Shown piece after piece: positions 19,372 through 46,737 of a DNA stretch of 64,000 nt (the first letter of the stretch is position 1; each line of letters opens with the position of its first letter). Source of the stretch: an uncultured Flavobacteriaceae bacterium (GTDB lineage Bacteria > Bacteroidota > Bacteroidia > Flavobacteriales > Flavobacteriaceae); assembly GCA_963793275.1 (NCBI GenBank), contig CAWBZL010000002.1:101590-165589 (forward strand). The letters run 5' to 3'. The notes under the pieces were generated by a model. That model searched no databases, was not told the origin of the DNA, and worked only from the letters and a program-made list of their open reading frames with translations. The translations under genes and the position numbers were made by a program.

Positions 19372-19974
19372 GTGAACTCCAAAGAAACCAAGAAAGAGAA
19401 GAGGATTGTAATTTTTGCTTCGGGCAGTGGTACCAATGCCCAGAATGTTATTCAATACTTTCAGCAATCTAACGTTGCCGAGGTTGTTCACGTGCTCAGT
19501 AACAAGAAGGATGCCAAAGTTTTAGCACGTGCCAAAGCCTTACGTATACCAGCGACCAGCTTCAGTAAAACCGAATTACTTTCAGAAGAACACGTGCTGA
19601 GATTCCTCAAAAACTTGCGCCCGGATATTATAGTTCTAGCAGGTTTTTTGCTGAAATTTCCTGAAATTATTATCCGCGAGTTTTCAGATAAAATAATTAA
19701 TATTCACCCTGCTTTGTTACCAAAATATGGCGGAAAAGGAATGTACGGACACCATGTTCACGAAGCAATTGTAGCAAATAAGGAATCTGAAACAGGAATT
19801 ACCATTCATTATGTAAACGAAAATTATGATGAAGGAGGGATTATTCTTCAGAAAAAAGTTGAAGTTTTGCCTGGAGATTCCTCTGAAGCCGTAGCAAGAA
19901 AAGTACAACACTTAGAATATAAATGGCTACCGAAGGTTATTGAAGCGTTGGTTGCGGGATCTAAAATTGAATAG
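19372..19974 (+). CDS. purN: phosphoribosylglycinamide formyltransferase
   Basis: 200 aa with formyltransferase fold motifs (IVIFASGSGTNAQ, NIHPALLP). Confidence 0.85.
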   Translation: MNSKETKKEKRIVIFASGSGTNAQNVIQYFQQSNVAEVVHVLSNKKDAKVLARAKALRIPATSFSKTELLSEEHVLRFLKNLRPDIIVLAGFLLKFPEIIIREFSDKIINIHPALLPKYGGKGMYGHHVHEAIVANKESETGITIHYVNENYDEGGIILQKKVEVLPGDSSEAVARKVQHLEYKWLPKVIEALVAGSKIE

Positions 19975-20001
19975 AACATTTTTTAAAAGCATAAATAGAA
20001 G

Positions 20002-21377
20002 GTGAACGTTGGAGAACAGCAAACATACATTATGGATAAATTTTTATTCAAGTATATAGACAACACAGGACTTGTACTATGGCGTGTGGTTTTTGGTGCC
20101 TTAATAGCAACCGAAGCTTTTGGGGCTATTGCAACAGGATGGCTTAAAAGAACCCTTATTGAGCCCGAGTTTACCTTTAACTTTATTGGTTTTGAGTTCC
20201 TGCAACCACTGCCCGGCGACTTAATGTATTACTACTTTATACTTATGGGTGTTTTTGGTCTTTTGGTGATGGTAGGGTACAAATACCGCTTTAGCATGGC
20301 ATGTTACGCGCTTATGTGGACGTGTGTGTATTTAATGCAAAAAACGTCTTATAATAATCATTATTATTTAATGATGTTGCTGTGTTGGATCATGGTGTTT
20401 CTACCTGCCCACCGCTGGTTTTCCCTGGATGCAACATTAGACCCCGAAGTTAAATCGCCGGCTGCTCCGCGTTGGACTTACTTAGTAATTATCTTTCAGG
20501 TATGGATTGTGTATACATTTGCATCTGTTGCAAAATGGTATCCGGATTGGCTAGATGGTACTACCACAGCACTTTTTATGAGTGGAAAAAGCGATTACTG
20601 GCTCATTGGACCGTTTTTACAGCTGGACTGGGTGCATTGGTGTATTGCGTATGTGGGTATTTTCTTCGATCTGCTCATTGTTCCGTTGATGCTTTATAAG
20701 CGTACCAGATTTATCGGTTTTGCTATTTCAGTGTTCTTTCATTTATTTAATTCTATTGTGTTTCAGATTGGGATCTTTCCTTATATGAGTATTGCTTTTG
20801 CACTGTTCTTTTTCTCTTCTGAAACATTACAAAAAAGGTTTCTTCCGAAGAAAAAATTATACACCTTAGGCGAAGTGAAAGTGCCAAACTACAAACCACT
20901 GCTGGTTGGAGTGTTTTCGATCTATTTTATATTTCAAATTGGCTTACCACTTCGCCATTGGGCGTTTCAGGATGACGTGCTTTGGACCGAGAGGGCCACC
21001 GCCTAAGCTGGCGTATGATGCTACGCAGCAAAGGCTCCAGAGTTATAGTGTATACTCAGGAAGAAGGCAGCGTAGAAAAAAAACCGTATAACTACCGAAA
21101 ACTCCTGAGTAAAAAACAACAACGCGCTTCCAAAAGCAAACCAGACCTATTGTGGAGACTCGCTAAAGAGATTAAAAAAGCCGAAGCTAAAGAAGGTAGA
21201 AACGTACAGGTTTTTATGGATGTTAAGTTAAAAATAAATGGCGGGGAGTACCATCAGTTTATAAAACCAGATGTAGATATTGCCTCTAAGGAGTGGCACC
21301 CCTTTAAACATCACGATTGGCTGGAACCTTCGCCTGCAGATTATCACGCAAAAGCAAAGAAAAAAGAAGAAAACTAA
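20002..21377 (+). pseudogene. HTTM-domain (vitamin K-dependent gamma-carboxylase-like) membrane protein, interrupted by a single-base frameshift near 20990
   Basis: Frame 1 (20002-21006) encodes the N-terminal HTTM region and ends ...FQDDVLWTERATA*. The 0 frame continues (E)GHRLSWRMMLRSK...WHPFKHHDWL, which is the conserved continuation of HTTM proteins. Restoring one G in gagagg makes a single ORF of about 459 aa. Confidence 0.55.
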
Positions 21378-21402
21378 AATCCTCTCAAAACATACATTTT
21401 CG

Positions 21403-21410
21403 CTAACTTT
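21403..21410 (+). promoter_or_regulatory. candidate Bacteroidetes sigma-A -7 element (TAnnTTTG) upstream of serS
   Basis: TAACTTTG lies 24 bp upstream of the serS ATG. No clear -33 TTG is present. Confidence 0.25.
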
Positions 21411-21433
21411 GCCGTCTTAAATTCTCAGAGAAA

Positions 21434-22705
21434 ATGTTACAAGTACAAGAAATACGCGCAAACAAAGATGCCTATATCAACGCCTTAAAAAAACGCGGGT
21501 TAGATGCTTCAGCAGATATCAACGCAATTCTGGAAGCAGATGAAACCCGTCGTGCAACCCAGACCAAACTGGATGAAACACTTGCACAAAGCAATACATT
21601 TTCGAAAGAGATCGGGAAGCTGTTTCAAAGTGGAGAAACTCAAAAGGCAAACATTTTAAAAGAGAAAACCAGCCAGTTAAAAGAAGCTTCAAAAAAGTAT
21701 CAGGAAGAACTTAATACTGCGGAAGAAATGCTGGAGAGTTTATTATATACCATCCCAAATATCCCTAACGAACTTGTCCCTGCAGGAACCGATGAAAATG
21801 ATAATGAGGAAGTTTTTGCCGAAGGTGATATCCCAAAGTTGAACAGTGAAGCCCTGCCACACTGGGAATTGGCTAAAAAATACGATCTAATAGATTTTGA
21901 ATTGGGCGTAAAAGTTACGGGCGCAGGTTTTCCGGTATACAAAGGAAAAGGAGCCAGATTACAACGTGCACTCATTAGTTATTTTCTGGATAAAAATACA
22001 GAAGCCGGCTACACCGAATACCAGGTGCCACATTTGGTAAACGAAGCGTCTGCAAGAGGGACAGGACAATTGCCGGACAAAGAAGGGCAAATGTATCACG
22101 TGACAGAAGATGATCTTTACCTCATTCCAACCGCAGAAGTACCCGTAACCAATTTGTTCAGAGGCGACTTAATTGCGCATACCCAATTGCCAATTACCTG
22201 TACTGGATACACACCATGTTTCCGTCGTGAAGCTGGAAGTTACGGCGCACACGTTCGTGGACTTAACAGATTACACCAATTTGATAAAGTTGAAATTGTA
22301 CGTGTGGAACATCCGGAAAATAGTTATGCAGCTTTGGACGGGATGGTAGCACACGTAAAAAATATACTACGCGATTTAAAACTACCCTACCGAGTACTTC
22401 GATTGTGTGGTGGGGATTTAGGATTCACGGCAGCATTAACGTACGATTTTGAAGTATTTAGCACCGCACAGGACAGATGGCTGGAAATTTCTTCTGTTTC
22501 CAATTTTGAAACGTTTCAGGCCAACCGATTAAAATTACGCTTTAAAGACGAAGACGGTAACAATAGGCTAGCACATACCTTAAACGGAAGTGCCTTAGCA
22601 TTACCACGTGTACTTGCAGGAATTCTGGAAAATTATCAAACGGAAGATGGTATTAAAATTCCTGAAGTTTTAGTGCCGTATTGTGGGTTCGACATGATTA
22701 AATAG
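21434..22705 (+). CDS. serS: seryl-tRNA synthetase
   Basis: 423 aa with N-terminal coiled-coil arm and class II aaRS core motifs. Confidence 0.9.
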   Translation: MLQVQEIRANKDAYINALKKRGLDASADINAILEADETRRATQTKLDETLAQSNTFSKEIGKLFQSGETQKANILKEKTSQLKEASKKYQEELNTAEEMLESLLYTIPNIPNELVPAGTDENDNEEVFAEGDIPKLNSEALPHWELAKKYDLIDFELGVKVTGAGFPVYKGKGARLQRALISYFLDKNTEAGYTEYQVPHLVNEASARGTGQLPDKEGQMYHVTEDDLYLIPTAEVPVTNLFRGDLIAHTQLPITCTGYTPCFRREAGSYGAHVRGLNRLHQFDKVEIVRVEHPENSYAALDGMVAHVKNILRDLKLPYRVLRLCGGDLGFTAALTYDFEVFSTAQDRWLEISSVSNFETFQANRLKLRFKDEDGNNRLAHTLNGSALALPRVLAGILENYQTEDGIKIPEVLVPYCGFDMIK

Positions 22706-22706
22706 C

Positions 22707-23315
22707 ATGGGAGAAATTATTGCCACCATATTATTTTTAATTGCGGTAATAGATCCAATTGGTTCTGTTCCTGTTTATTTAGAAGCTACAAAGCATTTCG
22801 ACCAAAAACATAAAAATAAAATAGCTGTAAGAGCAAGTTTTATAGCGTTTCTTATTCTGCTATTCTTTATTGTAATTGGACAGCTAATTCTGGAAGGAAT
22901 GGATATTTCGTTATATGCATTTCAAATATCTGGTGGGGTTATTTTATTCCTCTTTGCCCTTACCATGATCTTTGGCGACGGTAAACCAGAAATGGAAAAA
23001 CACCTCATAACAGACTATAAACACGTTACCATTTTCCCGGTTGCCATCCCTTCCATTGCTTCTCCCGGTGCAATAATGGCCGTTGTACTTATGACTGATA
23101 ATCATATTTACACCATCCAACAGCAAGCGGTAACTGCTACCCTAGTTTTTGTTGTAGTAATTATTACGGCTGTTTTACTGCTGGTTGCAAACGTAGTGCA
23201 AAAGAGAATTGGCGAATATGGTATTACGGTAATTAGTAAAATTATGGGCTTAATTCTCGCTTCGTATGCCGTACAAAGTATTTTGGCCGGAGTTAAAGGG
23301 TTCTTCTTTACGTGA
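22707..23315 (+). CDS. MarC-family (UPF0056) integral membrane protein
   Basis: 202 aa with six TM helices and N-terminal FLIAVIDPIG, typical of MarC. Confidence 0.75.
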   Translation: MGEIIATILFLIAVIDPIGSVPVYLEATKHFDQKHKNKIAVRASFIAFLILLFFIVIGQLILEGMDISLYAFQISGGVILFLFALTMIFGDGKPEMEKHLITDYKHVTIFPVAIPSIASPGAIMAVVLMTDNHIYTIQQQAVTATLVFVVVIITAVLLLVANVVQKRIGEYGITVISKIMGLILASYAVQSILAGVKGFFFT

Positions 23316-23424
23316 TCTAAATTCGGGAATAGGTTTTTTATTCAAATTATTTTCTTTGTCAAATTCCTTACCCTCAATTTACTTTAGTGTAACAATAGCT
23401 TCAATTGTTTCTGAAATGAAGTAG

Positions 23425-24243
23425 TTACCCTAGTTTTTCAGCAATCACTTCAACCATCATAGGACAAAACAGCGTTGTGTTTTTGTCTTTTTCCAGCATT
23501 TTATGGTCTTCAAAAGCCTGTTTTGATTCTGCATCGGTTAAAAAACCCATTTGGACCAAACGCGGAAAATAGCTGTAGTAAAAGGTTTTGGGCCATTGCC
23601 ACACTATGTTTTCTGGTGTTCCTAATTTTGGCATTAAACGAATGCTAGTAACTTTCATTCCAATTTCAGCCAGCAAGGTTGGAAGTTCGCGCCCAATATC
23701 TATTTCTCCTTTTTGTTCTTTAAAACTTTTGAGGCAGGCTGCAATGGCTTTATTTAACCCTGCAAGTTGAGGTTCGGTTTGGTGGGTACGCCAATCGTAA
23801 TATTCGTGAAGCACCATTTTTCCACCAGGTTTTAAGGCATTGTAAGCTTTCTGTAAAATTTCTTTAGGGTTGGAAATCCAAGCCAGTGCCCAGCGACAAT
23901 ACAGGCCGTCCAGAGTATTTTGCGGTAGCTGCAAATTGTCAAAATCTGAACAGATCCCATCAATATTCAAATGATACAAGGTTGCGATTTGCGTGAGGTG
24001 TTGAATGTAACCTTCATCCAGATCTACACCAATCACTTTACCAGTTTCACCTACCAAATATGCTAACTCTTTACTACAAAATCCAGGGCCACAACCCAGG
24101 TCCAAAATAGTTTGTCCGGCAGTAAAGCCAGCTGTTTTCCAGCCTTCCTGCGCTTCGGTTGCCCATATTTGATGTTGTACACCCAAGCGGTGCAGTTCTT
24201 GTGCGTCTGTTCCTAAAATATAGGGTTGGGAGGGTTTTGGCAT
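23425..24243 (-). CDS. class I SAM-dependent methyltransferase
   Basis: 272 aa with SAM-binding motif I ILDLGCGPGF. Confidence 0.7.
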   Translation of the reverse strand: MPKPSQPYILGTDAQELHRLGVQHQIWATEAQEGWKTAGFTAGQTILDLGCGPGFCSKELAYLVGETGKVIGVDLDEGYIQHLTQIATLYHLNIDGICSDFDNLQLPQNTLDGLYCRWALAWISNPKEILQKAYNALKPGGKMVLHEYYDWRTHQTEPQLAGLNKAIAACLKSFKEQKGEIDIGRELPTLLAEIGMKVTSIRLMPKLGTPENIVWQWPKTFYYSYFPRLVQMGFLTDAESKQAFEDHKMLEKDKNTTLFCPMMVEVIAEKLG

Positions 24244-24652
24244 GGTTGGTGAATTTGACTGTAAGATAATAAATAACCAACTAGTTAGTCGAGATATTTT
24301 TTAAGTTGTTTCGGAATAAAATAGTGCCAGTCACTCCGGCAACTTTCTCTTGAATCTTCGGGGACGTTATCTGGCTAATTCTCTTTTATGGTGTTGGTAG
24401 GGGTAGAACCGTTTTCAGCAAGGAGTATTTCAGAATCTACTCGAGCCAGACCGGGATATCCATTATTCCACAAATTTAGAATTTCTTCTTTATCAGTCTT
24501 TGATAGTTCTATTTGTTTAATAAATTCTACGCTACATATTTTTTGTTTACGGCAAGTGCTAAATTTAAAAATTTGGCGACCTCAAAAAAGTGCCCGTTGT
24601 TTTTTCTCAAATCCTCGTGCTATATTTTATATACATTTTAACAGCCAATTTT

Positions 24653-25387
24653 TTATCGGTATTCTGGATTTTCAAATTTCCATCGTTCCCCATTATCCCA
24701 TTCTTTCCGAGAGTTACCATAATTAGGATACCCGCTATTTTCCTGGAGCATTAGTGCTAAATGAAGGAGATTATATGTCATAAAAGTTGTGTTTCTATTT
24801 GTGAAATTACTATCGAAACCAACAGGCTTCTGCAGTTTTTCTCCGTTCCATTCTTTATCTCCATAACTTGGTCCAGGACCAACTTTTCCAATCCATCCGC
24901 AATCTGCTTGTGGTGGTATTGAATATCCTACGTGTTGAAGTGAGTACAATATTCCCATCGCACAATGCTTTATGCCATCTTCGTTCCCAGTAACTATGCA
25001 GCCACCAACTTTACCATAAAAAATGTATTGACCTTTATCATTCGTTAAACTGCTCAAAGCATAAAGTCTTTCAATTAATTTTTGAGCTTCAGAGGATTTT
25101 TCGCCAAGCCAAATTGGTGTTCCAACGATAAGAATATCAGCATCCAAAACTCTTTTTGTTAATGTTGGCCACTCATCAATATCCCATCCATATTCTGTCA
25201 TATCTGGATAAACACCACTTGCCACCTGGTGGTCGATTAATCTAATTTCGTCGATTTTGACTTTTTCCTTGATCATAATGGCTTTAGAAACTTCCATTAA
25301 AGTTTTCGTGTGGCTTTCTTGTGGTGATTTTTTGAGAGTACAATTTATATAAATCACTTTTAGATTACTGAAATCTGGTTTTTTCAT
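24653..25387 (-). CDS. flavodoxin-like fold NAD(P)H-dependent oxidoreductase
   Basis: 244 aa with the NADPH-dependent FMN reductase-like N-terminus (KVIYINCTLKKSP...). Confidence 0.6.
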   Translation of the reverse strand: MKKPDFSNLKVIYINCTLKKSPQESHTKTLMEVSKAIMIKEKVKIDEIRLIDHQVASGVYPDMTEYGWDIDEWPTLTKRVLDADILIVGTPIWLGEKSSEAQKLIERLYALSSLTNDKGQYIFYGKVGGCIVTGNEDGIKHCAMGILYSLQHVGYSIPPQADCGWIGKVGPGPSYGDKEWNGEKLQKPVGFDSNFTNRNTTFMTYNLLHLALMLQENSGYPNYGNSRKEWDNGERWKFENPEYR

Positions 25388-28508: not shown

Positions 28509-28727
28509 AATCCCTTAGAATCAATCTAAATCAGAACAATAATTTTGAAAACTGCATCATTTTTCATCATATTTGCCACCAAATGAGAACGATTAGTTTA
28601 CATACACCACAAATAGGACTGAATTTTCAGTGGGAATATCGTGCGATGAAAAATTCAGATTCACGGTACAGGGCGTTATGTAACTTTTTTTGAGATAAAA
28701 ATAAACTCTAAAACAACATTTATATAA

Positions 28728-28756
28728 AGCGTCCGATCCAACGGGCGCTTTTTTTA
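28728..28756 (+). terminator. rho-independent terminator hairpin in recQ-downstream intergenic region
   Basis: 8-bp stem agcgtccg/cgggcgct with loop atccaa, then T8. Confidence 0.45.
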
Positions 28757-29198
28757 TGAATTTTTTTACTGAATGATAAAATTTTAAGGCACACATAAAA
28801 ATGTAGGCATTGACGTATAAGCAACAGAGAGACAACAGTTTGCAAACAAGGCCAGAAATCTGCAATAATCGGACAGGGAATTGCTATGCTTTAAATTAAT
28901 GTAAATAACTGATAATCAACAAAATAAAATTAAAAATTAGTTGTGTAATTCAAAAATACATTTCATATTTGCACCGCAGTTATGATATAGATAACTGCTT
29001 TAAAAAACTATAAATTTAAAATAAGAAGCTATGCGATTTCAAACGTATATAGATCAAAAAACAGGAAGTGAAAGTTTCCTCAGCAAAACGCTTCGCGATT
29101 ATAATTAGAATAATTTCTTCTATGAAAAATCCGAAGCAACTCCACCGTTTCGGATTTTTTTATGCCTTTTTCTAAAAGGATCCTACAAGTTCGTTACG

Positions 29199-29804
29199 GT
29201 GATTAAGAACACATTAAAGATCACTAAAATGAACACAAATACACATAATTTATACTTATTCAAGGCTATGGAGGCATACCCTTGGGACCTTGAAAAAGCG
29301 GTTGAAGCATTGCAATATGCTTTGTCTTACGAACCAGAAAACGTAACCGCCCTTTGTTTGATGGCAAAAGTACACGCCGAACAACTAAGCGATTATGAAA
29401 CCGCAAAAAGCTATTTTGAAAAAGCAGTAGCAAGCGATATACGTGCCACCAAAATATATCCGGATTATGTACGTACGTTACTACAGAATCACGATTTTGA
29501 GGAAGCTCAAAAGCTGATAGATTTTGCGATGACTGTAAAAGCGGTGGATAGAGGTGGTTTACAATTATTGCAAGGGCAATTGTTTGAAAACTTGCAAAAG
29601 TTTGAAAAAGCTGAAGCAGCTTTAAAAGAAGCTCGTAACCTAGGGTTAAATTCAGATTTTATCGAATTTGTTGAAAGCGAATTGGAGCGCGTCACCAAAA
29701 AAAGGGAACGCCAAAACAATGAGCAAAAAACCGACAACTCTAAGGAAACAGCTAAAACGGAAGATTCAAAAAGCTGGGTCCACAGGCTAAGTAGCTTACT
29801 ATAA
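29199..29804 (+). CDS. hypothetical helical/TPR-like protein (true start possibly ATG at 29229)
   Basis: 201 aa of helical repeat-like sequence with a charged C-terminal tail. No catalytic motif. Confidence 0.45.
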   Translation: MIKNTLKITKMNTNTHNLYLFKAMEAYPWDLEKAVEALQYALSYEPENVTALCLMAKVHAEQLSDYETAKSYFEKAVASDIRATKIYPDYVRTLLQNHDFEEAQKLIDFAMTVKAVDRGGLQLLQGQLFENLQKFEKAEAALKEARNLGLNSDFIEFVESELERVTKKRERQNNEQKTDNSKETAKTEDSKSWVHRLSSLL

Positions 29805-29875
29805 ATCAGGATAAAATCTAAGTTTAATTTATAAAGGAAACAATAAAATCCGCTCTCTGTAAAGAGGGTGGTATA

Positions 29876-29959
29876 CGGGAGTGCGTCAACGCTGGAGAGT
29901 TGAGATAGTCTGTAAAACTATTCCTTAGTAGCTGAATAGGTTCAAATCCTTTCACTCCC
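29876..29959 (+). tRNA. tRNA-Tyr(GTA)-like, class II, with aberrant D-arm and a T-stem mismatch
   Basis: Perfect acceptor stem gggagtg/cactccc, anticodon arm atagt-ctgtaaa-actat and a long variable arm. C8 replaces U8, the D-loop is atypical and the T-stem has a U:U mismatch. Confidence 0.35.
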
Positions 29960-29962
29960 ACA

Positions 29963-30035
29963 GAGTACCGTAGTTCAAAGGCTGGAGCGTCCGGTTGTCT
30001 CCCGGAAAGGTACGGGTTCGAGTCCCGTCGGTACT
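29963..30035 (+). tRNA. tRNA-Asp(GTC)
   Basis: 73-nt cloverleaf: acceptor agtaccg/cggtact, D-stem gttc/gagc, anticodon loop ttgtctc, T-arm acggg-ttcgagt-cccgt. Position 37 is U rather than a purine. Confidence 0.6.
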
Positions 30036-30167
30036 GCGAATGATATTGAAGGAGTTTGCATCGGGACGAGAAGTTTATCCTGAGTAGTGGTGAGGCACGA
30101 GCCGCGAATCGAAGGGAGTCCCGTCGGTACGGTCATGCCTCCGACGAGAGAGGCACGAACCAGAGGA

Positions 30168-30239
30168 AGGCACTTTAGCATAGTGGTTGGTGCACCTCAC
30201 TTTCTATGAGGAGACCAGGGTTTGATTCCCTGATGGAGT
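30168..30239 (+). ncRNA. tRNA-Glu(TTC)-like unit with non-pairing acceptor 3' strand (degenerate)
   Basis: It has D-, anticodon- (cctca-ctttcta-tgagg) and T-arms, but the T-loop tttgatt lacks C56 and the 3' strand atggagt cannot pair with 5' ggcactt. Confidence 0.3.
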
Positions 30240-30243
30240 ACAA

Positions 30244-30339
30244 TGGGCTTATGGTGTAGCGGATAGCATGCTTGGCTTCGAACCAAGTGGTATGTTGCCT
30301 GTGCCGCACTTGATGCGGTATTCAAATCCTGTTAAGCCC
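30244..30339 (+). ncRNA. tRNA-like unit (anticodon TCG) carrying a ~20-nt hairpin insertion in the variable/T region
   Basis: Perfect acceptor gggctta/taagccc and anticodon arm cttgg-cttcgaa-ccaag. A 44-nt segment containing hairpin tgccgca-cttga-tgcggta sits where the variable loop and T-arm should be, and cctgt is duplicated. Confidence 0.3.
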
Positions 30340-30344
30340 ACAAA

Positions 30345-30417
30345 TTGAGGTATAACTCAGCGGCTAGAGTACCGTGCTTTTAACACGGGAGTCCTAGGTT
30401 CAAATCCTAGTGCCTCA
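30345..30417 (+). tRNA. tRNA-Lys(TTT)
   Basis: 73-nt canonical cloverleaf with U8A9, D-stem actc/gagt, anticodon loop cttttaa and T-arm ctagg-ttcaaat-cctag. The 1:72 pair is U:A. Confidence 0.7.
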
Positions 30418-30421
30418 ACAA

Positions 30422-30492
30422 TAAACCCATAGTGTAGTGGTAGCACACAAGATTTTGATTCTTGGGGTCTGAGTTCGAATCTCGGTGGGTTT
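30422..30492 (+). tRNA. tRNA-Gln(TTG)
   Basis: 71-nt cloverleaf with acceptor aaaccca/tgggttt, anticodon arm caaga-ttttgat-tcttg and T-arm ctgag-ttcgaat-ctcgg. Confidence 0.7.
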
Positions 30493-30500
30493 ACACTATA

Positions 30501-30573
30501 TGGAACAGTAGCAAAGCGGGTCAATGCACTGGATTGAAGCTCCAGGAATACGGGTTCGAGTCCTGTCTGTTCC
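30501..30573 (+). tRNA. tRNA-Phe(GAA)
   Basis: 73 nt with perfect acceptor ggaacag/ctgttcc, anticodon arm ctgga-ttgaagc-tccag and T-arm acggg-ttcgagt-cctgt. Confidence 0.7.
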
Positions 30574-30574
30574 A

Positions 30575-30754
30575 CGAAAGGTCTGTAACGCAGATGATAG
30601 TATCAAGCGGGTCTTGTTGTGTGTTTCGGTATAGCACCATTGCATACGGCGTTGCAACTAGTATTGCGAACGTATGTGCAACTTGACTTGAAGGTTTTGC
30701 TGTTTTCCAAAAAATAGCGGCAATCGTTTCGTGGGTTCGAATCCCACTCCCGCC
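30575..30754 (+). ncRNA. structured spacer ending in a canonical tRNA T-arm plus acceptor-3'-like tail, with no matching 5' half
   Basis: gtggg-ttcgaat-cccac at 30730-30746 followed by tcccgcc. Upstream contains the palindrome gttgcaac and hairpins, but no complementary acceptor 5' strand. Confidence 0.2.
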
Positions 30755-30756
30755 CA

Positions 30757-30840
30757 AGCAGGGATAGCGTAGTGGTTAACGCACCAGATAAAGGATCTGG
30801 CAAACGAGAGCAGATGTCGCGGGTTCGACTCCCGCTCCCA
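30757..30840 (+). ncRNA. class II tRNA-like unit (Leu-like, anticodon region AAG) with a 5-nt anticodon loop and a mismatched acceptor
   Basis: U8A9, D-arm gcgt-agtggtta-acgc, long variable region and canonical T-arm gcggg-ttcgact-cccgc. The anticodon hairpin ccagat-aaagg-atctgg has no U33, and only 4 of 7 acceptor pairs form. Confidence 0.25.
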
Positions 30841-30847
30841 ATGTAAA

Positions 30848-30920
30848 TTGGGGTAGCTCAGTTGGTAGAGCACTGCACTTTTAATGCAGGTAATGGACTC
30901 AAAATCCATCATCGTAAAGA
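30848..30920 (+). ncRNA. second tRNA-Lys(TTT)-like unit: canonical 5' two-thirds fused to a non-tRNA 3' end
   Basis: ggggtagctcagttggtagagcactgcacttttaatgcag is a textbook Lys 5' half. Downstream has hairpin atgga-ctcaaaa-tccat (non-TpsiC loop) and 3' strand catcgta that does not pair. Confidence 0.3.
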
Positions 30921-31448
30921 AGGTCAACTTTTAAAAAAGACCACCAGCCTGTCACGCTGTTAAATTTGACAAAAATAGTATGGGAAGCGTCGGTTTAGAT
31001 TTGCTGAAACGTGAATGAAGAACACTCCTGAAAGTACCTTGAGTGGCGCCGGTGGCTAGTAAAGAATAAATTTCTTTGTGAGCATTTTGAAACCATTGAA
31101 CCTTTTTATTAGGAATCCGTACCTGGAGCCTACTAAAAGGAAGGATGTGGTTTCAACGCCTTACAAACAGGTTTTGTAACTGGTAGCCACCCCGTCACTC
31201 CGTCACTGGAAAGAGGATGTGCCCTGTACTGTTTTTAATTGAAAAGGATTGCGTTAGGGATTGAGCGTTATGTATGAGCTCTTTTTAATTGTTTGAGCAA
31301 TTAGAAAAGCGAGTAGCGAAAGCCCGACCCAGTATTGCTTGAGGTATGAAAAGCGATATTGGGAAACGCCCAAAATACAAAAGAAATACACGGTCCCCGT
31401 TACAGACTGTGTTGTTAACTGAATGTTTAATTTCTAAAACTTAAAAAA

Positions 31449-32552
31449 ATGAAAAGAGTTAGAATTAATACCGGAATGGTAGGTTTGGTCTTCAAGAGAG
31501 GAGATTACAAACGAGTAGTAACACAAGGTGTCTATTGGTTAAGCTTTGGAGAGCGTGTTGTAAAATACAACCTTGCCGAAGCCATGCGCAAGGCACCCGT
31601 AGCATTAGAAATTCTTGAAAGGGACGAAGCTTTGGTGGCCCTTTGGCACCAGGTAGATGTTTTGGATACAGAATTGGTCATCGTTTATAAGAACGGCCAA
31701 TACAACCAGATATTAACAGCTGGAAGATATGTATTCTGGAAAGGGTTGATAGACTACAGCTTTACACGTGTAGACCTTACAAAGATCTATATCACGGAAG
31801 CGATTGATACGTCACTTTTTGCCAAATTAGAATTGGCCAAGTATATCCGTTCTTTTGAAGTGGCAACATCTGAAAAAGCGGTGCTTTTAGTAGACGATGT
31901 TTATGTGAAAACCTTAACCGGTGGTACGTACCGCTTCTGGAGAAATGAAACCACTATTAAAATTGCAAAAGCAGATATGCGACAATTGCAATTGGAAGTA
32001 GCTGGACAGGAATTGTTAACCAAGGATAAAGCGGCAATCCGTATCAACTTTTACGCGCAGTATAAAGTAAGCAATGTGGAGCGAGCGCTCTTGGAAAATA
32101 AGGACTACGAGAAGCAATTATACGTGGCTATGCAGTTGGCGTTACGTGCGTATGTAGGTACGTATACTTTAGACGAACTTTTGGAAAACAAATCACAAAT
32201 CGCGAACGCTGTGTTTGAAGACACAAAGACAGCCGCAGATAAATTGGGTGTTACGGTAGTATACTGTGGAATCCGGGATGTGATCTTAACCGGGGAAATG
32301 AAGGACATCATGAACCAGGTGTTGGTTGCACAAAAGAAAGCTCAGGCTAATGTAATTACAAGACGTGAAGAAACAGCTTTGACCAGAAGCTTGTTGAATA
32401 CCGCCAAATTAATGGAGGACAATACCATGCTTTACAAATTGAAAGAGATGGAATACGTAGAGAAAATTGCCGACAAGATTGGCGAGATCACCGTTTCCGG
32501 AAACGGAAACATGGTGAAACAATTAACCGAAATTTTTGCGGTGAGCAAATAG
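31449..32552 (+). CDS. SPFH/Band 7 (stomatin/prohibitin-like) domain protein
   Basis: 367 aa. The C-terminal half has the SPFH core and the characteristic Ala/Gln-rich coiled-coil (VLVAQKKAQANVITRREETALTRSLL). Confidence 0.7.
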   Translation: MKRVRINTGMVGLVFKRGDYKRVVTQGVYWLSFGERVVKYNLAEAMRKAPVALEILERDEALVALWHQVDVLDTELVIVYKNGQYNQILTAGRYVFWKGLIDYSFTRVDLTKIYITEAIDTSLFAKLELAKYIRSFEVATSEKAVLLVDDVYVKTLTGGTYRFWRNETTIKIAKADMRQLQLEVAGQELLTKDKAAIRINFYAQYKVSNVERALLENKDYEKQLYVAMQLALRAYVGTYTLDELLENKSQIANAVFEDTKTAADKLGVTVVYCGIRDVILTGEMKDIMNQVLVAQKKAQANVITRREETALTRSLLNTAKLMEDNTMLYKLKEMEYVEKIADKIGEITVSGNGNMVKQLTEIFAVSK

Positions 32553-32582
32553 TGCCTTAACGGTAGGTGCAAGCACTGGGAG

Positions 32583-32768
32583 TTATATAACTTCTGGTGC
32601 TTTTTTTATGGTTGTAAGTCCCATTTCTAAAAATCTGGATTGGCGCTCATAAGCTGTCATATCCAAGCAGGGACAACGGTTGCAACGTTTATGTTCTCCC
32701 TTTTTGATGTATTTATCACAGCATTTGGTTTTGATACCTTCTTTCTTCTTTTTGTTTTTCTTTCCCAT
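32583..32768 (-). CDS. hypothetical small Lys/Cys-rich protein (61 aa)
   Basis: The ORF overlaps the stop of the upstream deacetylase gene by 1 nt. It has a CC...CxxCxC cluster suggesting a zinc ribbon. No homology can be asserted. Confidence 0.3.
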   Translation of the reverse strand: MGKKNKKKKEGIKTKCCDKYIKKGEHKRCNRCPCLDMTAYERQSRFLEMGLTTIKKAPEVI

Positions 32769-33670
32769 TAAAAGAAAATTTCTTGTGCCATTTTATAAGT
32801 ATTTGCGTGGGCCTCAATGATTACATCAATAGCTGGAGAGTAGCCACCACCCATACTTACCTGTACTGGAATGTTGTGTTCTTTACAGGTTTCAAAAACA
32901 AAACGGTCACGGGCTTTACAGCCTTCAATCGTACAAGACAATCTCCCCAATTTATCTCCTTTCAGAATATCTACCCCGCTCAAGTAAAAGATGAAATCAG
33001 GTTGTACTTTTTTAATGAGTTTGGGGAGGGTATTTTTTAAAATCTCAAGATATGCTGCATCTTCTGTACCGTCGTCCAGCCCAATATCCAGATCACTCTG
33101 TTCTTTTTTAAACGGATAGTTTTTCGCTCCGTGCATGGAGAAAGTGAATACATTTGGATTATTCTCAAAAATCTTTGCAGTGCCGTTACCTTGATGTACA
33201 TCTAAATCGACGATGAGAATTTTGGATGCTTTCCGAGTGTCCAATAAATACTGTGCTGCCACGGCTTGATCGTTCAACAAACAAAAAGCTTCGCCACGGT
33301 CTGCATAGGCGTGGTGCGTTCCACCGGCAATGTTTAGCGCAACACGATTTTCTATAGCATATTCGCAGCCTTGTATCGTTCCGCCAATAATATAATGCCC
33401 ACGATTCACTAAATCGGCGCGTAGGGGAAACCCGATTTTTCGTATTTCTTTTTTGTCTAATTCAAGTTTCAGTAAGCGGTTGTAATAGTCCTGTGTATGG
33501 ACTTTGGTAATAATTTCTGCTGAAACTTTTTTGGGTGTAAAGAAGTTTTCTTTGGTACAGATCCCGTATTTTAGAAGATATTCCGGGAGTAAATTATATT
33601 TCGCCATGGGGAACCGATGGCCTTCAGGTAGCGAATATTTATAAATGGGATGGTAGGCGATTTTGAGCAT
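32768..33670 (-). CDS. histone deacetylase-family protein (arginase/deacetylase fold)
   Basis: 300 aa with HDAC-family motifs (GGTHHAYADRGEAFC, DLDVHQGNGT, GGGY). Confidence 0.8.
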   Translation of the reverse strand: MLKIAYHPIYKYSLPEGHRFPMAKYNLLPEYLLKYGICTKENFFTPKKVSAEIITKVHTQDYYNRLLKLELDKKEIRKIGFPLRADLVNRGHYIIGGTIQGCEYAIENRVALNIAGGTHHAYADRGEAFCLLNDQAVAAQYLLDTRKASKILIVDLDVHQGNGTAKIFENNPNVFTFSMHGAKNYPFKKEQSDLDIGLDDGTEDAAYLEILKNTLPKLIKKVQPDFIFYLSGVDILKGDKLGRLSCTIEGCKARDRFVFETCKEHNIPVQVSMGGGYSPAIDVIIEAHANTYKMAQEIFF

Positions 33671-38066: not shown

Positions 38067-38705
38067 TTAAGACGAAATAAATAGTACTTCTCCATCTACC
38101 AACACATAAATTTCATCTTTTTCAGAAGGCGTTAGTATATATTTTCCGGTAAAACTCCCAAAGGCGGGGAAAATTAGTTGTTTTTCAGTTTTATAGAAAC
38201 AGGCAACTCTTACTGTTTGCCTGCCAACACCTTGTAACTTTACACCCGGATGAATATGGCCACAAAAATTGAAATACGCATCCAATTCTGTTGGGTGATG
38301 TGTTAACAGAAATTTTTCGAGTATAAGTTCTTTATAGATTTGAACTCCTAACGCTTCAAATAAGTATTGCGGAATGATATCGTGATTCCCTGAAATTAAA
38401 ATAACCTGCGCTGAGGTATAGTCTACCCACTTTGCAAAATCGCTCCACTCACTATTTAAGTTACTGTGAAAAAGATCGCCTAAAAAACAAACCGTCTGTG
38501 GCTGAAAGTGATTTACAACACCCGTTAATTTTTCTAAATTTTCATAAGCAACGTGTGCAGGAATTGCGGCTCCGTGTTTTCTGAAATGCGTCACTTTTCC
38601 TAAGTGTACATCGGCGATGAGTAGCATTGATTTTTGTTCCCAAAATATTGCTCCGCTGGGGTGGAGGATGAAGTTTTGATCGTTTATGGAAATGGTTTGG
38701 GACAT
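38067..38705 (-). CDS. pdeM: ligase-associated DNA damage response endonuclease PdeM (metallophosphoesterase)
   Basis: 212 aa calcineurin-like phosphoesterase (DVHLGK, GDLFH, GNHD). It is the last gene of the ligase-Lhr operon. Confidence 0.75.
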
Positions 38706-38808
38706 CAGACTGCAAAAATACAGCTTTAGTCATTTCGACGCAGGAGAAACCACATAACAATGACTACTATATTATTTTAATAAGGATTATAACAGTTGAA
38801 ATTATTCA

Positions 38809-41268
38809 TTATTTCATCAATTTTAACGTCATTCGTTTAATTCTATCCTTCAATTTTTCTGAAGAAAGCTTTTCCCGTAACCTGTCGGTAATAATGGGGA
38901 AACTAAAAGGCGTGGCTTCTTCGCATTGTTTCCAAACTATTTCTTGGCTGGCAATTCGCTCCAATGCCAATCGTAGTCTGCCTTCTTCCATTTCGTGTTC
39001 AAAAGTTTCTCTAAATGCCTGTTGGTATAACAAATTATCTGCTTCGTAATCTCTAAACACATCAAACAGCAATTGCGAATTGCTTTGCAGGTGCTTGGTT
39101 TTTATTTGTTTGCTAGGATAGCCCGTAAAAACCAAACCACTTATTACAGCAATATCTCTGAATTTTCTGCGGGCCAATTCAGTACTATTTAAACTTTTTT
39201 GAAGGTCGCTAAAAAGATAGTCAGTGCTAAATAAATTATTGTCCACCACATTCTGAATATCCAAAGGCTGATCGCTCAACAATTCAAAGCCATAATCATT
39301 GTATGCAAGGGAAAAAGTGATGGGAGAAAGCAAACTAATTCTGTACGCCAATAATCCGCCCATTGCCATATGTACAAACCGCCCTTCAAATGGATAAAAT
39401 AAATGGTGATAGCCTTCTCTGGTTTTAAAGGTTTCTATTAAAAACTCATTATTTCCAGGAACAATACTTTCTTTTTCCTGTCTGTCAAAAATATCTGAAA
39501 GAGCTTTTAACTCAGGCGTGTTTCTCTTATGATCTGCTTCAGACTGCAGTTCGTTTCGTAAAATTTCAGACATCTGAGAAGAAAGTGCCATGCGCCCTCC
39601 CATAAAACTTACTACATTTCTTGTGCGCTTGCTACTGCGTCTTACCTGAGCGGCCATATTTCGAACCCTAACCAGTTCCAACGTTCTTCCCGCAAATACA
39701 AATACATCTCCGGGTTTCATTTTTCCTATAAAAAATTCTTCGATGGTACCTATAAATCCGCCACTCACGTATTTTACCTGCACCATTGCATCACTTACTA
39801 TAGTGCCAATAGACAGACGGTGCATCATAGCTGTTTGGCGGCTGTCCACGTAAAACCTCCCATCGTCGTCTACTAAAACGCGTTTATATTCGTCATAAGC
39901 CTGCAAGCTCTGGCTTCCTAGTGTGATAAAATTGAGGCACCATTGCCATTGTTCTTCAGTAATTCCCTGAAAACAAAAGGTGTTTTTAATTTCCGGATAT
40001 ATGTCTTTGGGATAAAAACCATCACTTACAGCAAGGGTTACTAAATACTGAATTAACACATCAAAACTTAACAAATACGGGATGCGGTCTTCCATTACTT
40101 CCCCTTTTACAGCTTTTTTTAGTGCCGAAGCTTCTATCAACTCCATAGCGTGTGTTGGCAAAAAATGAATTACTGATGGTTCTCCGGGTCTGTGATTGCT
40201 ACGCCCTGCCCGTTGTAAAAACTTAGCAATTCCTTTAGGCCCACCAATTTGAATAATAGTTTCTACAGGCGCAAAGTCTACTCCCAGATCCAAACTTGAG
40301 GTAGCCACCACAGCTTTTAAACTTTCGTTTCGTATCGCTTGTTCTACCCACAATCTGGTTTCCTTATTGATGCTTCCGTGATGCATCGCTAATTCGCCAG
40401 CAAACTCCGGATACTTCTCTAAGATTTTCTGAAACCAAATTTCGCATTGACCGCGGGTATTGGTAAAGATGAGTGTAGTTTTACTGGATTTTATAATAGG
40501 TATAATGTCGTCCAGCAAGTGCAATCCCAAATGCCCGCGCCAGGGAAAGGTTTCCATTTTTTTAGGAATAATAGATTTTACAACTATTTTTTTCTTGATG
40601 TTTGCTTTTAATAAAATCGAATTTTCGCGTAACGCTTCATTCATTCCCAGTAACACATCCTGCGCTTGTTCTAAATTTCCAATAGTTGCCGAAATTCCCC
40701 AAATACGAAGCTGAGGCGAGATGGTTTTAAGTCTGGATAAGCCAAGTTCCATCTGCACACCACGTTTGCTGCCAAGGAGCTCGTGCCATTCATCTACCAC
40801 TACAGCTGTAAGGTTTCCGAAGATCTTTTTATAGCCTTTACTTGCCAACAACAACATTAAACTTTCTGGAGTTGTAATGAGTAAATCGGGCATGTTCCGT
40901 TTTTGCTTTGCCCGCTCACTTTGCGCAGTATCACCGGTTCTTATTCCCACAGTTAAGCCTGTTTCCAGTTCGTCTGCAAAACGTTGTGCCGCTTGTTTAA
41001 TTTCTACCGAAAGTGCCCGCAGCGGAGTAATCCAGATTGCTTTTAAACCTTTTGTGTGTTTAGTTTTATATTCCGGATGGTCTTTTATATACTGCAATAC
41101 AATAGGAACCCAAAGTGCATAGGTTTTCCCGCTTCCCGTAGGAGCATTTAGAAGCCCGTGTTTTCCTTGTAAAAATGCCTTCCAGGTTTTTTTCTGAAAT
41201 GGGAATGCCTTCCAGTTTTTAGACTCGAACCAGGTTTCGGCTATTTCTATTAATTGGGATTGATTCAT
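38809..41268 (-). CDS. lhr: ligase-associated DNA damage response DEXH-box helicase (Lhr-like)
   Basis: 819 aa with Walker A APTGSGKT, a DEWH box, helicase C motifs and a long C-terminal Lhr extension. Confidence 0.8.
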   Translation of the reverse strand: MNQSQLIEIAETWFESKNWKAFPFQKKTWKAFLQGKHGLLNAPTGSGKTYALWVPIVLQYIKDHPEYKTKHTKGLKAIWITPLRALSVEIKQAAQRFADELETGLTVGIRTGDTAQSERAKQKRNMPDLLITTPESLMLLLASKGYKKIFGNLTAVVVDEWHELLGSKRGVQMELGLSRLKTISPQLRIWGISATIGNLEQAQDVLLGMNEALRENSILLKANIKKKIVVKSIIPKKMETFPWRGHLGLHLLDDIIPIIKSSKTTLIFTNTRGQCEIWFQKILEKYPEFAGELAMHHGSINKETRLWVEQAIRNESLKAVVATSSLDLGVDFAPVETIIQIGGPKGIAKFLQRAGRSNHRPGEPSVIHFLPTHAMELIEASALKKAVKGEVMEDRIPYLLSFDVLIQYLVTLAVSDGFYPKDIYPEIKNTFCFQGITEEQWQWCLNFITLGSQSLQAYDEYKRVLVDDDGRFYVDSRQTAMMHRLSIGTIVSDAMVQVKYVSGGFIGTIEEFFIGKMKPGDVFVFAGRTLELVRVRNMAAQVRRSSKRTRNVVSFMGGRMALSSQMSEILRNELQSEADHKRNTPELKALSDIFDRQEKESIVPGNNEFLIETFKTREGYHHLFYPFEGRFVHMAMGGLLAYRISLLSPITFSLAYNDYGFELLSDQPLDIQNVVDNNLFSTDYLFSDLQKSLNSTELARRKFRDIAVISGLVFTGYPSKQIKTKHLQSNSQLLFDVFRDYEADNLLYQQAFRETFEHEMEEGRLRLALERIASQEIVWKQCEEATPFSFPIITDRLREKLSSEKLKDRIKRMTLKLMK

Positions 41269-41269
41269 G

Positions 41270-42919
41270 TTACTTAGGAATCAAAGCTCTCAGATCGTCC
41301 AGGGTATTTGCTTCTTCTATAGGTTTGTCTTTTCTCCATCGCAATATTCTTGGAAACCTGGTGGCAATACCGCTTTTATGTCGTTTACTTTCAGCAATGC
41401 CCTCAAAAGCTATTTCAAAAACGTGATGTGGTGTAACGCTTCTTACACGACCAAAGCGTTCCAGGGTGTTCTTTTTTATCCAGGCATCTACTTGTCTGAA
41501 TTCGGCATCTGTGAGACCCGAATATGCTTTTGCAAAAGTTACCAGTTCTCCTTCATCCCAAAGACCAAAGGTATAATCTGTATATAAATTTGCGCGCCTT
41601 CCGTGACCACGCATGGCGTAGGTGAGCACACCGTCTATGGTGAATGGGTCGGTTTTCCATTTCCACCAATCGCCTTTTTTTCGGCCAACTAAATAAGGAG
41701 AATCTTTGCGTTTCAGCATTAAACCTTCACTGCGTTTTTCTCGCGATAATTTTCTTTCGGCTGCGGCATCTTCCCAGGTTTTAAACGTCATTGTTTCGCT
41801 TAGATACAAGCCTATTTCGTCACAACTACATTCTGAAATTAAAGTGTCCAGAATTTCTCTTCTTTCTGAAAAGGGCTTTTGCCGGATATCTTTTCCTTTC
41901 CACTCCAATAGATCGTAAGCATTCAAAATCACCGGTGTTTTCTCCAGTAATTTTTTTGAAATATTCTTTCTGCCAATACGAGTTTGAAGGTCGTTAAAAT
42001 TTCCAATTTCATTATTTCCGAAGGGTAAAATTTCACCATCCAAAACGGTACCGTTAGGAATTTTTGAAAGGAAGCGTTGAAATTCAGGGTATTTATCGGT
42101 AACTAGTTCTTCGCCTCTGGACCAGACAAACACTTCGTCATTTCTGATAATTACCTGGCTCCTGATACCATCCCATTTATGTTCAAAACTCCAGCCTTTA
42201 ATATCGCCCAGATCTTCCTGAAAATTATCTTCTACAGCATACGCCAGATAAAACGGATAGGGTTTACTGAGGTAATCTTCCGGGTTTTCTTCTAAAATTA
42301 AATCCTGAAACGTGGTTGTATCTGCAGTCCAGTTACCCATTAGTTTATAGGCAAGTATGTCTTCATCTATTCCCGTAGATTTTGAGAGTGATCGGGTCAT
42401 TAATTTTTGACTCACCCCAATTCTAAAACCACCCGTAATAATTTTATTGAACACAAAACGCTCAAAATAGCTCATTCTCAACCAGTTTTCCTGAAGATAG
42501 CTTCTTTTTTCATCTTCTTCGAGTGTACGTAGCGTAATGATTTCGTTACAGTATTGAGACAGCGATTTTTCCCGAATTCCCAGCGCCTCTCCCGCTGAGA
42601 GGGGAATATTCTTTTCTTCCTTTTTTAGGGAGTGTTTAGGTGCGCTTGGAATTATTAAGGCAATAGTTTCGGCCAGATCACCCACTATATGATAGCTTTC
42701 TTCAAATAACCACTGTGGGATGCCACTAATTTCGGTTGCCCATAACCTTAGAAGTGTTGTGTTTACAGGGCGTTTTGGTCTTCTGTGTGAGAGTATGGCA
42801 ATGGTCCATAGTTTATCATCTTCACCCGCATTGTTAAAATATTCGGTGAGTGCAGCCACTTTCAAGGTGGTTTTATTGGTACTATCCAGAGTTTTTATGA
42901 GGGCAGCAAAATGTTTCAT
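41270..42919 (-). CDS. ATP-dependent DNA ligase (ligase-associated DNA damage response ligase)
   Basis: 549 aa with adenylation motif I EHKWDGIR and OB-fold region. There is a 4-bp overlap with the upstream exonuclease gene. Confidence 0.8.
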   Translation of the reverse strand: MKHFAALIKTLDSTNKTTLKVAALTEYFNNAGEDDKLWTIAILSHRRPKRPVNTTLLRLWATEISGIPQWLFEESYHIVGDLAETIALIIPSAPKHSLKKEEKNIPLSAGEALGIREKSLSQYCNEIITLRTLEEDEKRSYLQENWLRMSYFERFVFNKIITGGFRIGVSQKLMTRSLSKSTGIDEDILAYKLMGNWTADTTTFQDLILEENPEDYLSKPYPFYLAYAVEDNFQEDLGDIKGWSFEHKWDGIRSQVIIRNDEVFVWSRGEELVTDKYPEFQRFLSKIPNGTVLDGEILPFGNNEIGNFNDLQTRIGRKNISKKLLEKTPVILNAYDLLEWKGKDIRQKPFSERREILDTLISECSCDEIGLYLSETMTFKTWEDAAAERKLSREKRSEGLMLKRKDSPYLVGRKKGDWWKWKTDPFTIDGVLTYAMRGHGRRANLYTDYTFGLWDEGELVTFAKAYSGLTDAEFRQVDAWIKKNTLERFGRVRSVTPHHVFEIAFEGIAESKRHKSGIATRFPRILRWRKDKPIEEANTLDDLRALIPK

Positions 42920-46153: not shown

Positions 46154-46155
46154 AA

Positions 46156-46680: not shown

Positions 46681-46737
46681 AAGATGCTGCTATTTAATTG
46701 AAAGAACTTAAGGTGCAGTTTGTCGAAAACTCACTCG

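What the first reader, a model, noticed from the sequence alone, without database searches (positions are those of the whole stretch)
20980..21010. HTTM-domain gene split by a 1-nt frameshift exactly at the conserved WTEEGHR motif
Frame 1 ends ...FQDDVLWTERATA* at 21006, while the 0 frame reads (L)DREGHRLSWRMMLRSKG... and carries the conserved C-terminal region. Inserting one G in gagagg (20989-20994) yields WTEEGHRLSWRMML and a single ~459-aa protein typical of the family. This is either a recent pseudogenisation, a sequencing or assembly indel, or, less likely, a site needing -1 ribosomal frameshifting.
Basis: seen in the sequence. Interest (0 to 1): 0.5.

Follow-up and report, generated by a model that had tools for sequence, protein, structure and literature searches.

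The report
Probable sequencing-error frameshift in carboxylase-like gene
A conserved membrane-enzyme gene looks broken by one missing base in this assembly, but a second assembly of the same strain disagrees at exactly that spot and the two assemblies differ mostly at one short DNA motif, so the break is most likely a sequencing error and the gene is ordinary.

Summary
ORF 20032..21006 carries the HTTM domain and the start of the VKGC lumenal domain. The -1 frame ORF 20982..21377 carries the rest. Adding one base in gagagg gives a 448-aa protein, the length of its closest homologues (92% identity). All 82 related loci read W(T/N)EE(G/A)HR in frame.

The frameshift is probably not biological. 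A Logan contig from run ERR12040027 matches window 19720..24595 perfectly except at this site (GGACCGAGAGGGCC against GGGCC-A-AGGGCC), and it is in frame. Five Logan contigs cover 25.4 kb of the window and show only six differences. Four of these lie in GGWCC motifs (binomial tail 1.5e-9, the best of 256 palindromic motifs). The missing base lies 1-4 nt after a GGACC.

Both assemblies carry likely errors elsewhere. The window has R where 117 of 120 ligase homologues have P, at a GGACC. Logan deletes a conserved Arg. Both halves of the gene show dN/dS of about 0.02-0.04 and no second lesion.

Programmed frameshifting has no support: no slippery site, no stimulatory structure, no conservation.

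Most likely this is a motif-linked consensus error, perhaps methylation-induced in nanopore reads. A very recent real pseudogene remains possible. Interest is low.

The parts
20032..21006 (+). Upstream ORF of the split gene. It holds the HTTM domain, the start of the lumenal domain and the Lys equivalent to human GGCX K218 (20533..20535). It ends ...LWTERATA*. An alternative GTG start lies at 20002.
   Evidence: searches (PF05090 249.7 bits; PF22777 positions 2-35; alignment to human GGCX), for the Lys coordinates. The exact 334-aa product from the GTG start is on record as P0135.
20982..21377 (+). Downstream ORF in the -1 frame. It holds the rest of the VKGC lumenal domain, starting (L)DREGHRLSWRMML. 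A gene caller recorded it as a 119-aa product starting MLRSKG (P0137).
   Evidence: (PF22777 positions 35-150, 94.9 bits).
20989..20994 (+). gagagg: the place where one base is missing relative to GAR GAG G in every relative.
   Evidence: the repair gives WTEEGHRLSWRMML; 82 of 82 related loci are in frame, mostly GAA GAA GGC.
20984..20988 (+). GGACC, a GGWCC motif immediately 5' of the missing base. The Logan contig reads GGGCC here.
20993..20997 (+). GGGCC, a second GGNCC 9 nt after the first. This is one of only two GGNCC pairs in the window spaced 12 nt or less apart.
21004..21006 (+). Premature TAA stop reached in the shifted frame.
41448..41448 (-). Probable base error of the same kind elsewhere in the window. 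The window reads CGACC and Logan reads GGACC, which turns a near-invariant Pro of the ATP-dependent DNA ligase into Arg.
   Evidence: 117 of 120 homologues have P; only the window's own protein has R.

Best explanation
The gene is an ordinary, probably intact, bacterial homologue of vitamin K-dependent gamma-carboxylase: an HTTM membrane domain plus a lumenal/periplasmic domain, 448 aa. It sits upstream of serS in a Flavobacteriaceae genome of the Rasiella/Marinirhabdus group.

The one-base deletion in this assembly is most likely a consensus error. It lies 1-4 nt downstream of a GGACC site. GGWCC appears to be a context in which the reads behind this genome are systematically miscalled. The most plausible cause is that GGWCC is methylated and the reads are native-DNA nanopore reads.

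What is shown: the break itself, the disagreement of a second assembly exactly at the break, the GGWCC association of the disagreements, and probable errors in both assemblies elsewhere. What is inferred: the read technology, the methylation, and the true sequence ACC GAR GAG GGC (WTEEGHR).
For: (1) Logan contig L083 (run ERR12040027, 4,874 bp) is identical to window 19720..24595 except at 20986-20991. It encodes an in-frame 457-aa protein, P0136.
(2) Five Logan contigs cover 25,406 nt of the window and show only six difference sites. Four lie in a GGWCC in one or the other assembly, although GGWCC makes up 0.3% of the bases. The binomial tail is 1.5e-9, the best of 256 palindromic motifs tried. 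Sites 20986 and 7268 are the same GGACC-to-GGGCC change on opposite strands.
(3) Five of the six differences are non-synonymous or indels, which is unlike natural strain polymorphism.
(4) At 41448 the window itself deviates from a Pro kept in 117 of 120 homologues, and the Logan version restores both the Pro and a GGACC. At 52613-52618 the Logan version deletes a conserved Arg. So both assemblies carry context-specific errors.
(5) All 82 related loci are intact and in frame at the motif. dN/dS against the closest relatives is about 0.03 upstream and 0.015-0.04 downstream of the break, and there is no second lesion.
(6) No other split gene was found among the ORF pairs checked, and homopolymers of 8-9 nt do not coincide with any ORF break, so this is not general indel noise.
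(7) Motif-linked errors in nanopore assemblies, mainly A/G and C/T swaps, are documented (PMC11610573). GGWCC is a known methylated motif class (PMC8919816).
Against: Neither assembly gives the conserved sequence. Logan reads WAKGHR, so if the true sequence is WTEEGHR then both assemblies are wrong at this site.

I could not learn the sequencing technology of ERR12040027 or of the deposited assembly. I also could not confirm that they come from the same sample.

Only 3 of the 16 GGWCC sites in the compared spans differ. Two of the six differences are C/G transversions rather than transitions. No methyltransferase was looked for; only 64 kb is available. No read-level data could be inspected.
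Confidence: 0.68

Rival explanations
1. Real, very recent pseudogenisation. One base was lost from GAR GAG in this strain. The result would be a 324-aa membrane fragment that keeps the catalytic Lys but lacks nearly all of the lumenal domain. The Logan variant would then be either noise or a second allele.
For: The deletion is present in the deposited consensus. It is not in a homopolymer longer than 2 nt, which is not a classic indel-error context. The window version was the correct one at 52613-52618, so the deposited assembly is not generally worse than Logan.
Against: An independent assembly of the same strain does not reproduce it. The site lies next to the motif at which the assemblies disagree elsewhere. 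The window has a probable error at another GGACC. None of 82 relatives has a broken copy. The downstream part shows no relaxation of selection, so the event would have to be extremely recent.
Confidence: 0.24
2. True micro-heterogeneity. Two alleles co-exist in the population: a frameshifted one with 8 nt at the site and an in-frame WAKGHR one with 6 nt. They might be produced by a mutational hotspot tied to GGWCC sites, for example restriction-modification-associated damage or repair.
For: There are two different states at one site on an otherwise identical 4.9-kb background. Differences elsewhere also sit at GGWCC. One of them (55778, GGTCC to GGTTC) is the C-to-T change expected from deamination of 5-methylcytosine.
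Against: The changes are of mixed kind and direction: A/G at the W position, C/G at the first G, and indels. Motifs are both lost and gained. Both alleles destroy an invariant motif, and variants elsewhere hit near-invariant residues. This fits noise better than selection or a defined mutational chemistry.
Confidence: 0.05
3. Programmed -1 ribosomal frameshifting, or another recoding event, restores WTEEGHR during translation.
For: A -1 shift after the GAG at 20989..20991 would read E-G-H-R and recreate the conserved motif exactly.
Against: The 20976..21006 overlap has no X XXY YYZ heptamer and no homopolymer, and no codon there allows the tRNA to re-pair in the -1 frame. The downstream RNA folds no better than shuffled sequence (z = -0.82). 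All 82 relatives encode the protein in a single frame.
Confidence: 0.01
4. The gene works as two separately translated polypeptides: the membrane HTTM part and a lumenal-domain part re-initiated at TTG 20982 or ATG 21016/21019.
For: Start codons exist within 10-15 nt of the stop.
Against: The break falls inside the lumenal domain at profile position 35 and inside the invariant motif. By inference, the downstream piece has no signal peptide or membrane segment to carry it across the membrane. No relative has this arrangement.
Confidence: 0.02

Closest known systems
Flavobacteriaceae HTTM-domain / vitamin K-dependent gamma-carboxylase-like proteins (P0001, 92% identity; Rasiella sp. SM2506 WP_432412461.1; Marinirhabdus gelatinilytica WP_115122048.1)
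   Same: After repair the protein has the same length (448 aa) and the same two Pfam domains. It has the same invariant WTEEGHRLSW motif. The closest relative shares the downstream neighbours serS and marC.
   Different: In this assembly the reading frame is broken by one missing base. The upstream neighbour is purN here and ribF in the closest relative.
Human vitamin K-dependent gamma-glutamyl carboxylase GGCX (PDB 9wfn, 9bvk, 9l20 and others)
   Same: It is homologous over both domains (E 3e-40). The catalytic Lys218 aligns with K168 here. WTEEGHRLSWRMML aligns with human W390-V403, a segment I recall as implicated in glutamate-substrate binding (residues 393-404). That role comes from memory and was not checked in a paper here.
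   Different: The bacterial protein is much shorter (448 against 758 aa) and its substrate and activity are unknown. No carboxylase function is implied.
Methylation-motif-linked basecalling and consensus errors in Oxford Nanopore bacterial assemblies (Lohde et al. 2024, PMC11610573)
   Same: The errors are tied to a short sequence motif, are mostly purine or pyrimidine swaps, and differ between assemblies of the same data.
   Different: The lesion of interest here is a one-base deletion beside the motif, not a swap within it. The read technology and the methylation could not be verified.
Programmed -1 frameshift sites (dnaX, IS element transposases)
   Same: There are two overlapping ORFs whose fusion by a -1 shift would give the full-length protein.
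   Different: There is no slippery heptamer, no stimulatory structure and no conservation of the arrangement.

Membership tests
HTTM / VKGC-like protein family (PF05090 + PF22777) | HTTM domain match above the Pfam gathering score | tested here: met
   249.7 bits against a cut-off of 27.7, covering profile positions 1-257 of 259 in the upstream ORF.
HTTM / VKGC-like protein family (PF05090 + PF22777) | Complete VKGC lumenal domain in one polypeptide | tested here: not met
   as encoded, the domain is split at profile position 35 between two frames. After a one-base repair it is matched over positions 2-150 of 152 at 137 bits.
HTTM / VKGC-like protein family (PF05090 + PF22777) | Lys equivalent to the catalytic K218 of human GGCX | tested here: met
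   alignment: the K in SVAKWYPDW (residue 168, 20533..20535).
HTTM / VKGC-like protein family (PF05090 + PF22777) | Epoxidase or carboxylase activity | not testable with these tools
   This needs biochemistry.
Programmed -1 ribosomal frameshift | Slippery heptamer X XXY YYZ, or at least a P-site codon that can re-pair in the -1 frame, within the overlap of the two frames | tested here: not met
   none in 20976..21006.
Programmed -1 ribosomal frameshift | Downstream stimulatory RNA structure | tested here: not met
   MFE -25.6 kcal/mol, z = -0.82 against shuffles.
Programmed -1 ribosomal frameshift | The two-frame arrangement is conserved in relatives | tested here: not met
   82 of 82 related loci are in a single frame.
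Genuine pseudogene | The lesion is reproduced in independent sequence data of the same strain | tested here: not met
   the only other assembly of this strain that I could retrieve has a different, in-frame sequence at the site.
Genuine pseudogene | Signs of relaxed selection, or further lesions | tested here: not met
   dN/dS is 0.015-0.04 downstream of the break, and there is a single lesion only.
Motif-linked (methylation-induced) long-read consensus error | Disagreements between assemblies of the same strain concentrate at one short motif | tested here: met
   GGWCC accounts for 4 of 6 sites, with a binomial tail of 1.5e-9, top of 256 motifs.
Motif-linked (methylation-induced) long-read consensus error | The deposited assembly carries other probable errors at the same motif | tested here: met
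   CGACC against GGACC at 41448 gives R where 117 of 120 homologues have P.
Motif-linked (methylation-induced) long-read consensus error | The reads are native-DNA nanopore reads and GGWCC is methylated in this organism | not testable with these tools
   Run metadata and raw signal are not available. A literature search for the run accession found nothing.

The most novel reading that the evidence does not exclude
The clustered changes at GGWCC sites are real. Under this reading, a restriction-modification-linked mutational hotspot creates co-existing alleles in the population, including frameshifted and in-frame-deleted forms of the HTTM gene at its invariant motif. That would make this a phase-variation-like switch at a methylation site.
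Probability: 0.03. Interest if true: 0.55.

Novelty: not a real feature. Interest (0 to 1): 0.08.

Why it matters
If the artefact reading is right, the value is practical only. The gene should be annotated as intact. This assembly should also be treated with caution at and beside GGWCC sites, where at least one other protein, the ATP-dependent DNA ligase, appears to carry a false substitution. The pattern also predicts a GGWCC-specific methyltransferase in this organism.

If the deletion were real, it would be an ordinary recent loss of a widely conserved Flavobacteriaceae gene of unknown function. That would be mildly informative about whether the gene is dispensable, but not surprising.

Tried and rejected
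- **Exact look-ups of the fragments.** The 324-aa fragment from the ATG start is not on record. P0135 could not be fetched as a locus.
- **Metagenome scans.** Two scans with patterns spanning the site found nothing, so there is no same-species sequence from JGI metagenomes.
- **Species-representative genomes.** The genome-contig scan found only other species, at 82% DNA identity or less, so no same-species reference was available there.
- **A wrong-species locus.** L088 (via P0144) turned out to be another species at 84% identity and was not used.
- **A prediction test that failed to run.** I tried to get the Logan contig over the second dense GGWCC pair at 24870 (GGTCCAGGACC). Both look-ups failed.
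- **Logan contig ends.** They do not coincide with GGWCC, so the contig breaks give no support either way.
- **Run accession.** Searches for it and for its prefix in the literature were uninformative. The Logan paper does not say which technologies are included.
- **Programmed frameshifting.** Rejected.
- **General indel noise.** Rejected. No other split genes were found among the candidate ORF pairs, and homopolymers of 8-9 nt do not coincide with any ORF break.
- **Diversity-generating retroelement.** Considered and dropped without a test, because the changes include indels and are not adenine-specific.

Full report
**Observation.** The frame that starts at GTG 20002 or ATG 20032 reads ...HWAFQDDVLWTERATA and stops at TAA 21004..21006. 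The -1 frame is open from 20976 and reads (L)DREGHRLSWRMMLRSKG... to 21377.

Pfam shows that the two ORFs are consecutive parts of one protein. The upstream ORF has the HTTM domain (PF05090, 249.7 bits) and profile positions 2-35 of the VKGC lumenal domain (PF22777). The downstream ORF has positions 35-150 of that same profile (94.9 bits). Adding one base within gagagg (20989..20994), either a G or an A, gives WTEEGHRLSWRMML and a 448-aa protein counted from ATG 20032.

That protein has exactly the length of its best homologues (P0001 at 92% identity, P0003 at 88%, and others), and all of those are single-frame proteins with both domains.

**What the gene is.** The repaired protein is homologous to human vitamin K-dependent gamma-carboxylase over both domains (E 3e-40 to PDB 9wfn, 9bvk, 9l20 and others). 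The catalytic Lys218 of the human enzyme aligns with K168 here (20533..20535). The WTEEGHRLSWRMML segment aligns with human W390-V403. From memory, and not checked in a paper here, human residues 393-404 are implicated in glutamate-substrate binding.

The organism is a Flavobacteriaceae of the Rasiella/Marinirhabdus neighbourhood. The nearest species representatives share about 81% DNA identity over the locus. In the closest relative the gene is likewise followed by serS and marC. In all 82 related loci fetched, the motif is encoded in one frame as W(T/N)EE(G/A)HR(L/T), mostly TGG ACC GAA GAA GGC.

Nei-Gojobori estimates against the closest relatives give dN/dS of about 0.03 upstream of the break and 0.015-0.04 downstream. 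The part beyond the break therefore shows no sign of relaxed selection, and there is no second lesion.

**The key result.** The window's own gene fragments are on record: P0135 (334 aa) and P0137 (119 aa), on a 582,737-bp contig from NCBI/ENA. The same protein cluster holds a 457-aa protein, P0136, from a Logan assembly of run ERR12040027. P0136 is identical to the window's protein except that it reads LWAKGHRLSW.

Its contig, L083 (4,874 bp), is identical to window 19720..24595 at every position except here. The window has CTTTGGACCGAGAGGGCCACC and Logan has CTTTGGGCC-A-AGGGCCACC. So the only other assembly of this strain that I could retrieve is in frame, and the only disagreement in 4.9 kb falls exactly on the reported frameshift.

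**Is that site special?** I fetched four more Logan contigs of the same run (L084-L087). Together the five contigs cover 25,406 nt of the window and show six difference sites:

| Site | Window position | Window | Logan |
|---|---|---|---|
| 1 | 20986-20991 | GGACCGAGAGGGCC | GGGCC-A-AGGGCC |
| 2 | 52613-52618 | GACTCCATGCGTAC | GACT-CAT--GTAC |
| 3 | 54809 | GGCCGG | GGGCGG |
| 4 | 55778 | GGTCC | GGTTC |
| 5 | 7268 | GGTCC | GGCCC |
| 6 | 41448 | CGACC | GGACC |

- Four of the six sites lie inside a GGWCC in one or the other assembly. GGWCC occupies only 16 sites (80 nt) of the compared spans.
- Among 256 palindromic 4-6-mer motifs, GGWCC ranks first, with a binomial tail of 1.5e-9.
- Sites 1 and 5 are the same GGACC-to-GGGCC change on opposite strands.
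- Five of the six differences change the protein, which is unlike natural polymorphism between near-identical strains.

**Which assembly is wrong?** Both are, at different places.
- At 41448 the window gives RFG-R-VRS in the ATP-dependent DNA ligase. 117 of 120 homologues have Pro there, as does the Logan version, and only the window's own protein has Arg.
- At 52613-52618 the window's SMRTAKLP fits the conserved (L)RTAKLP, which is seen in most of the 28 representatives aligned. The Logan version deletes the conserved Arg.
- At the HTTM site neither assembly gives the invariant WTEEGHR.

The simplest reading is that the underlying reads are noisy in specific sequence contexts, above all at GGWCC, and that each assembler resolved the noise differently. 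Because the Logan contigs contain multi-base indels that were seen in at least two reads (Logan discards k-mers seen only once; PMC12424806), I infer that the run consists of long, error-prone reads. I could not verify the platform.

Motif-linked errors caused by DNA methylation are well documented for nanopore assemblies, mainly as A/G and C/T ambiguities (PMC11610573). GGWCC is a known methylated motif class (PMC8919816). The missing base lies 1-4 nt 3' of GGACC 20984..20988, and a second GGNCC follows at 20993.

The window does not otherwise look indel-prone. No other split genes were found among the candidate ORF pairs, and A8, T8 and T9 runs do not coincide with any ORF break.

**Rivals.**
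- *A real, very recent pseudogene* cannot be excluded without reads. I give it about one chance in four.
- *True co-existing alleles produced by a GGWCC-linked mutational process* would be the interesting reading. However, the mixed kinds and directions of change, and the hits on invariant residues, argue for noise.
- *Programmed -1 frameshifting* is effectively excluded. The 20976..21006 overlap has no slippery heptamer or homopolymer, and no codon there can re-pair in the -1 frame. The downstream fold is no better than shuffled sequence (z = -0.82). All relatives encode the protein in a single frame.
- *A functional two-polypeptide arrangement* is unlikely. The break lies inside the lumenal domain and the invariant motif, and the downstream piece has no evident means of crossing the membrane (inference).

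**Verdict.** The best-supported explanation (about 0.68) is a consensus error beside a GGWCC motif in an otherwise ordinary, intact, conserved gene. Read-level inspection or an amplicon sequence would settle it. Interest is low.

Noticed in passing
window 41448 (ATP-dependent DNA ligase gene 41270..42919, - strand): The window reads CGACC where the Logan contig reads GGACC. This gives RFG-R-VRS, whereas 117 of 120 homologues have Pro. It is a probable base error in the deposited assembly at a GGWCC site.
   Followed up: yes
window 52613..52618 (gene 51943..53784, +): The Logan contig L085 lacks 3 nt here (SDSC-TAKLP against the window's SDSMRTAKLP). Homologues keep the Arg-Thr, so here the Logan version looks wrong. 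The context is not GGWCC; it contains CATG and GTAC.
   Followed up: yes
window 54809, 55778 and 7268: Three further single-base differences between the window and the Logan contigs. 54809 is GGCCGG against GGGCGG (Gly to Ala). 55778 is GGTCC against GGTTC (Asp to Asn). 7268 is GGTCC against GGCCC (synonymous, in a Walker A GPNGAGKS motif). Which version is right at 54809 and 55778 was not determined.
   Followed up: partly
window 24870..24880: GGTCCAGGACC is the only other place in the window with two GGWCC/GGNCC sites within 12 nt of each other. The error hypothesis predicts trouble here, but no Logan contig covering it could be fetched.
   Followed up: partly
window 38067..44016 (- strand): A four-gene cluster: a metallophosphoesterase (38067..38705), an Lhr-type DEAD-box helicase with a DEAD_assoc domain (38809..41268), an ATP-dependent DNA ligase (41270..42919) and a 366-aa ORF with no Pfam match (42916..44016). 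From memory, it resembles the known ligase-associated DNA damage response operon.
   Followed up: no
window 44654..46689 (- strand): A Ras-family small GTPase (46156..46689, Ras PF00071, E 4e-33) lies directly upstream of a hybrid histidine kinase with a receiver domain (44654..46153).
   Followed up: no
window 28590..33460: A stretch with several short ORFs that have no Pfam match (28593..28883, 29824..30132, 30357..30602, 30658..30930, 32735..33040, 33186..33461) and intergenic gaps of 200-500 nt. It is less densely coding than the rest of the window.
   Followed up: no
window 19372..23315, compared with L001 1..5518: The HTTM gene, serS and marC keep their order in the closest relative. The upstream neighbour differs: purN here, ribF and pth in L001.
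   Followed up: partly
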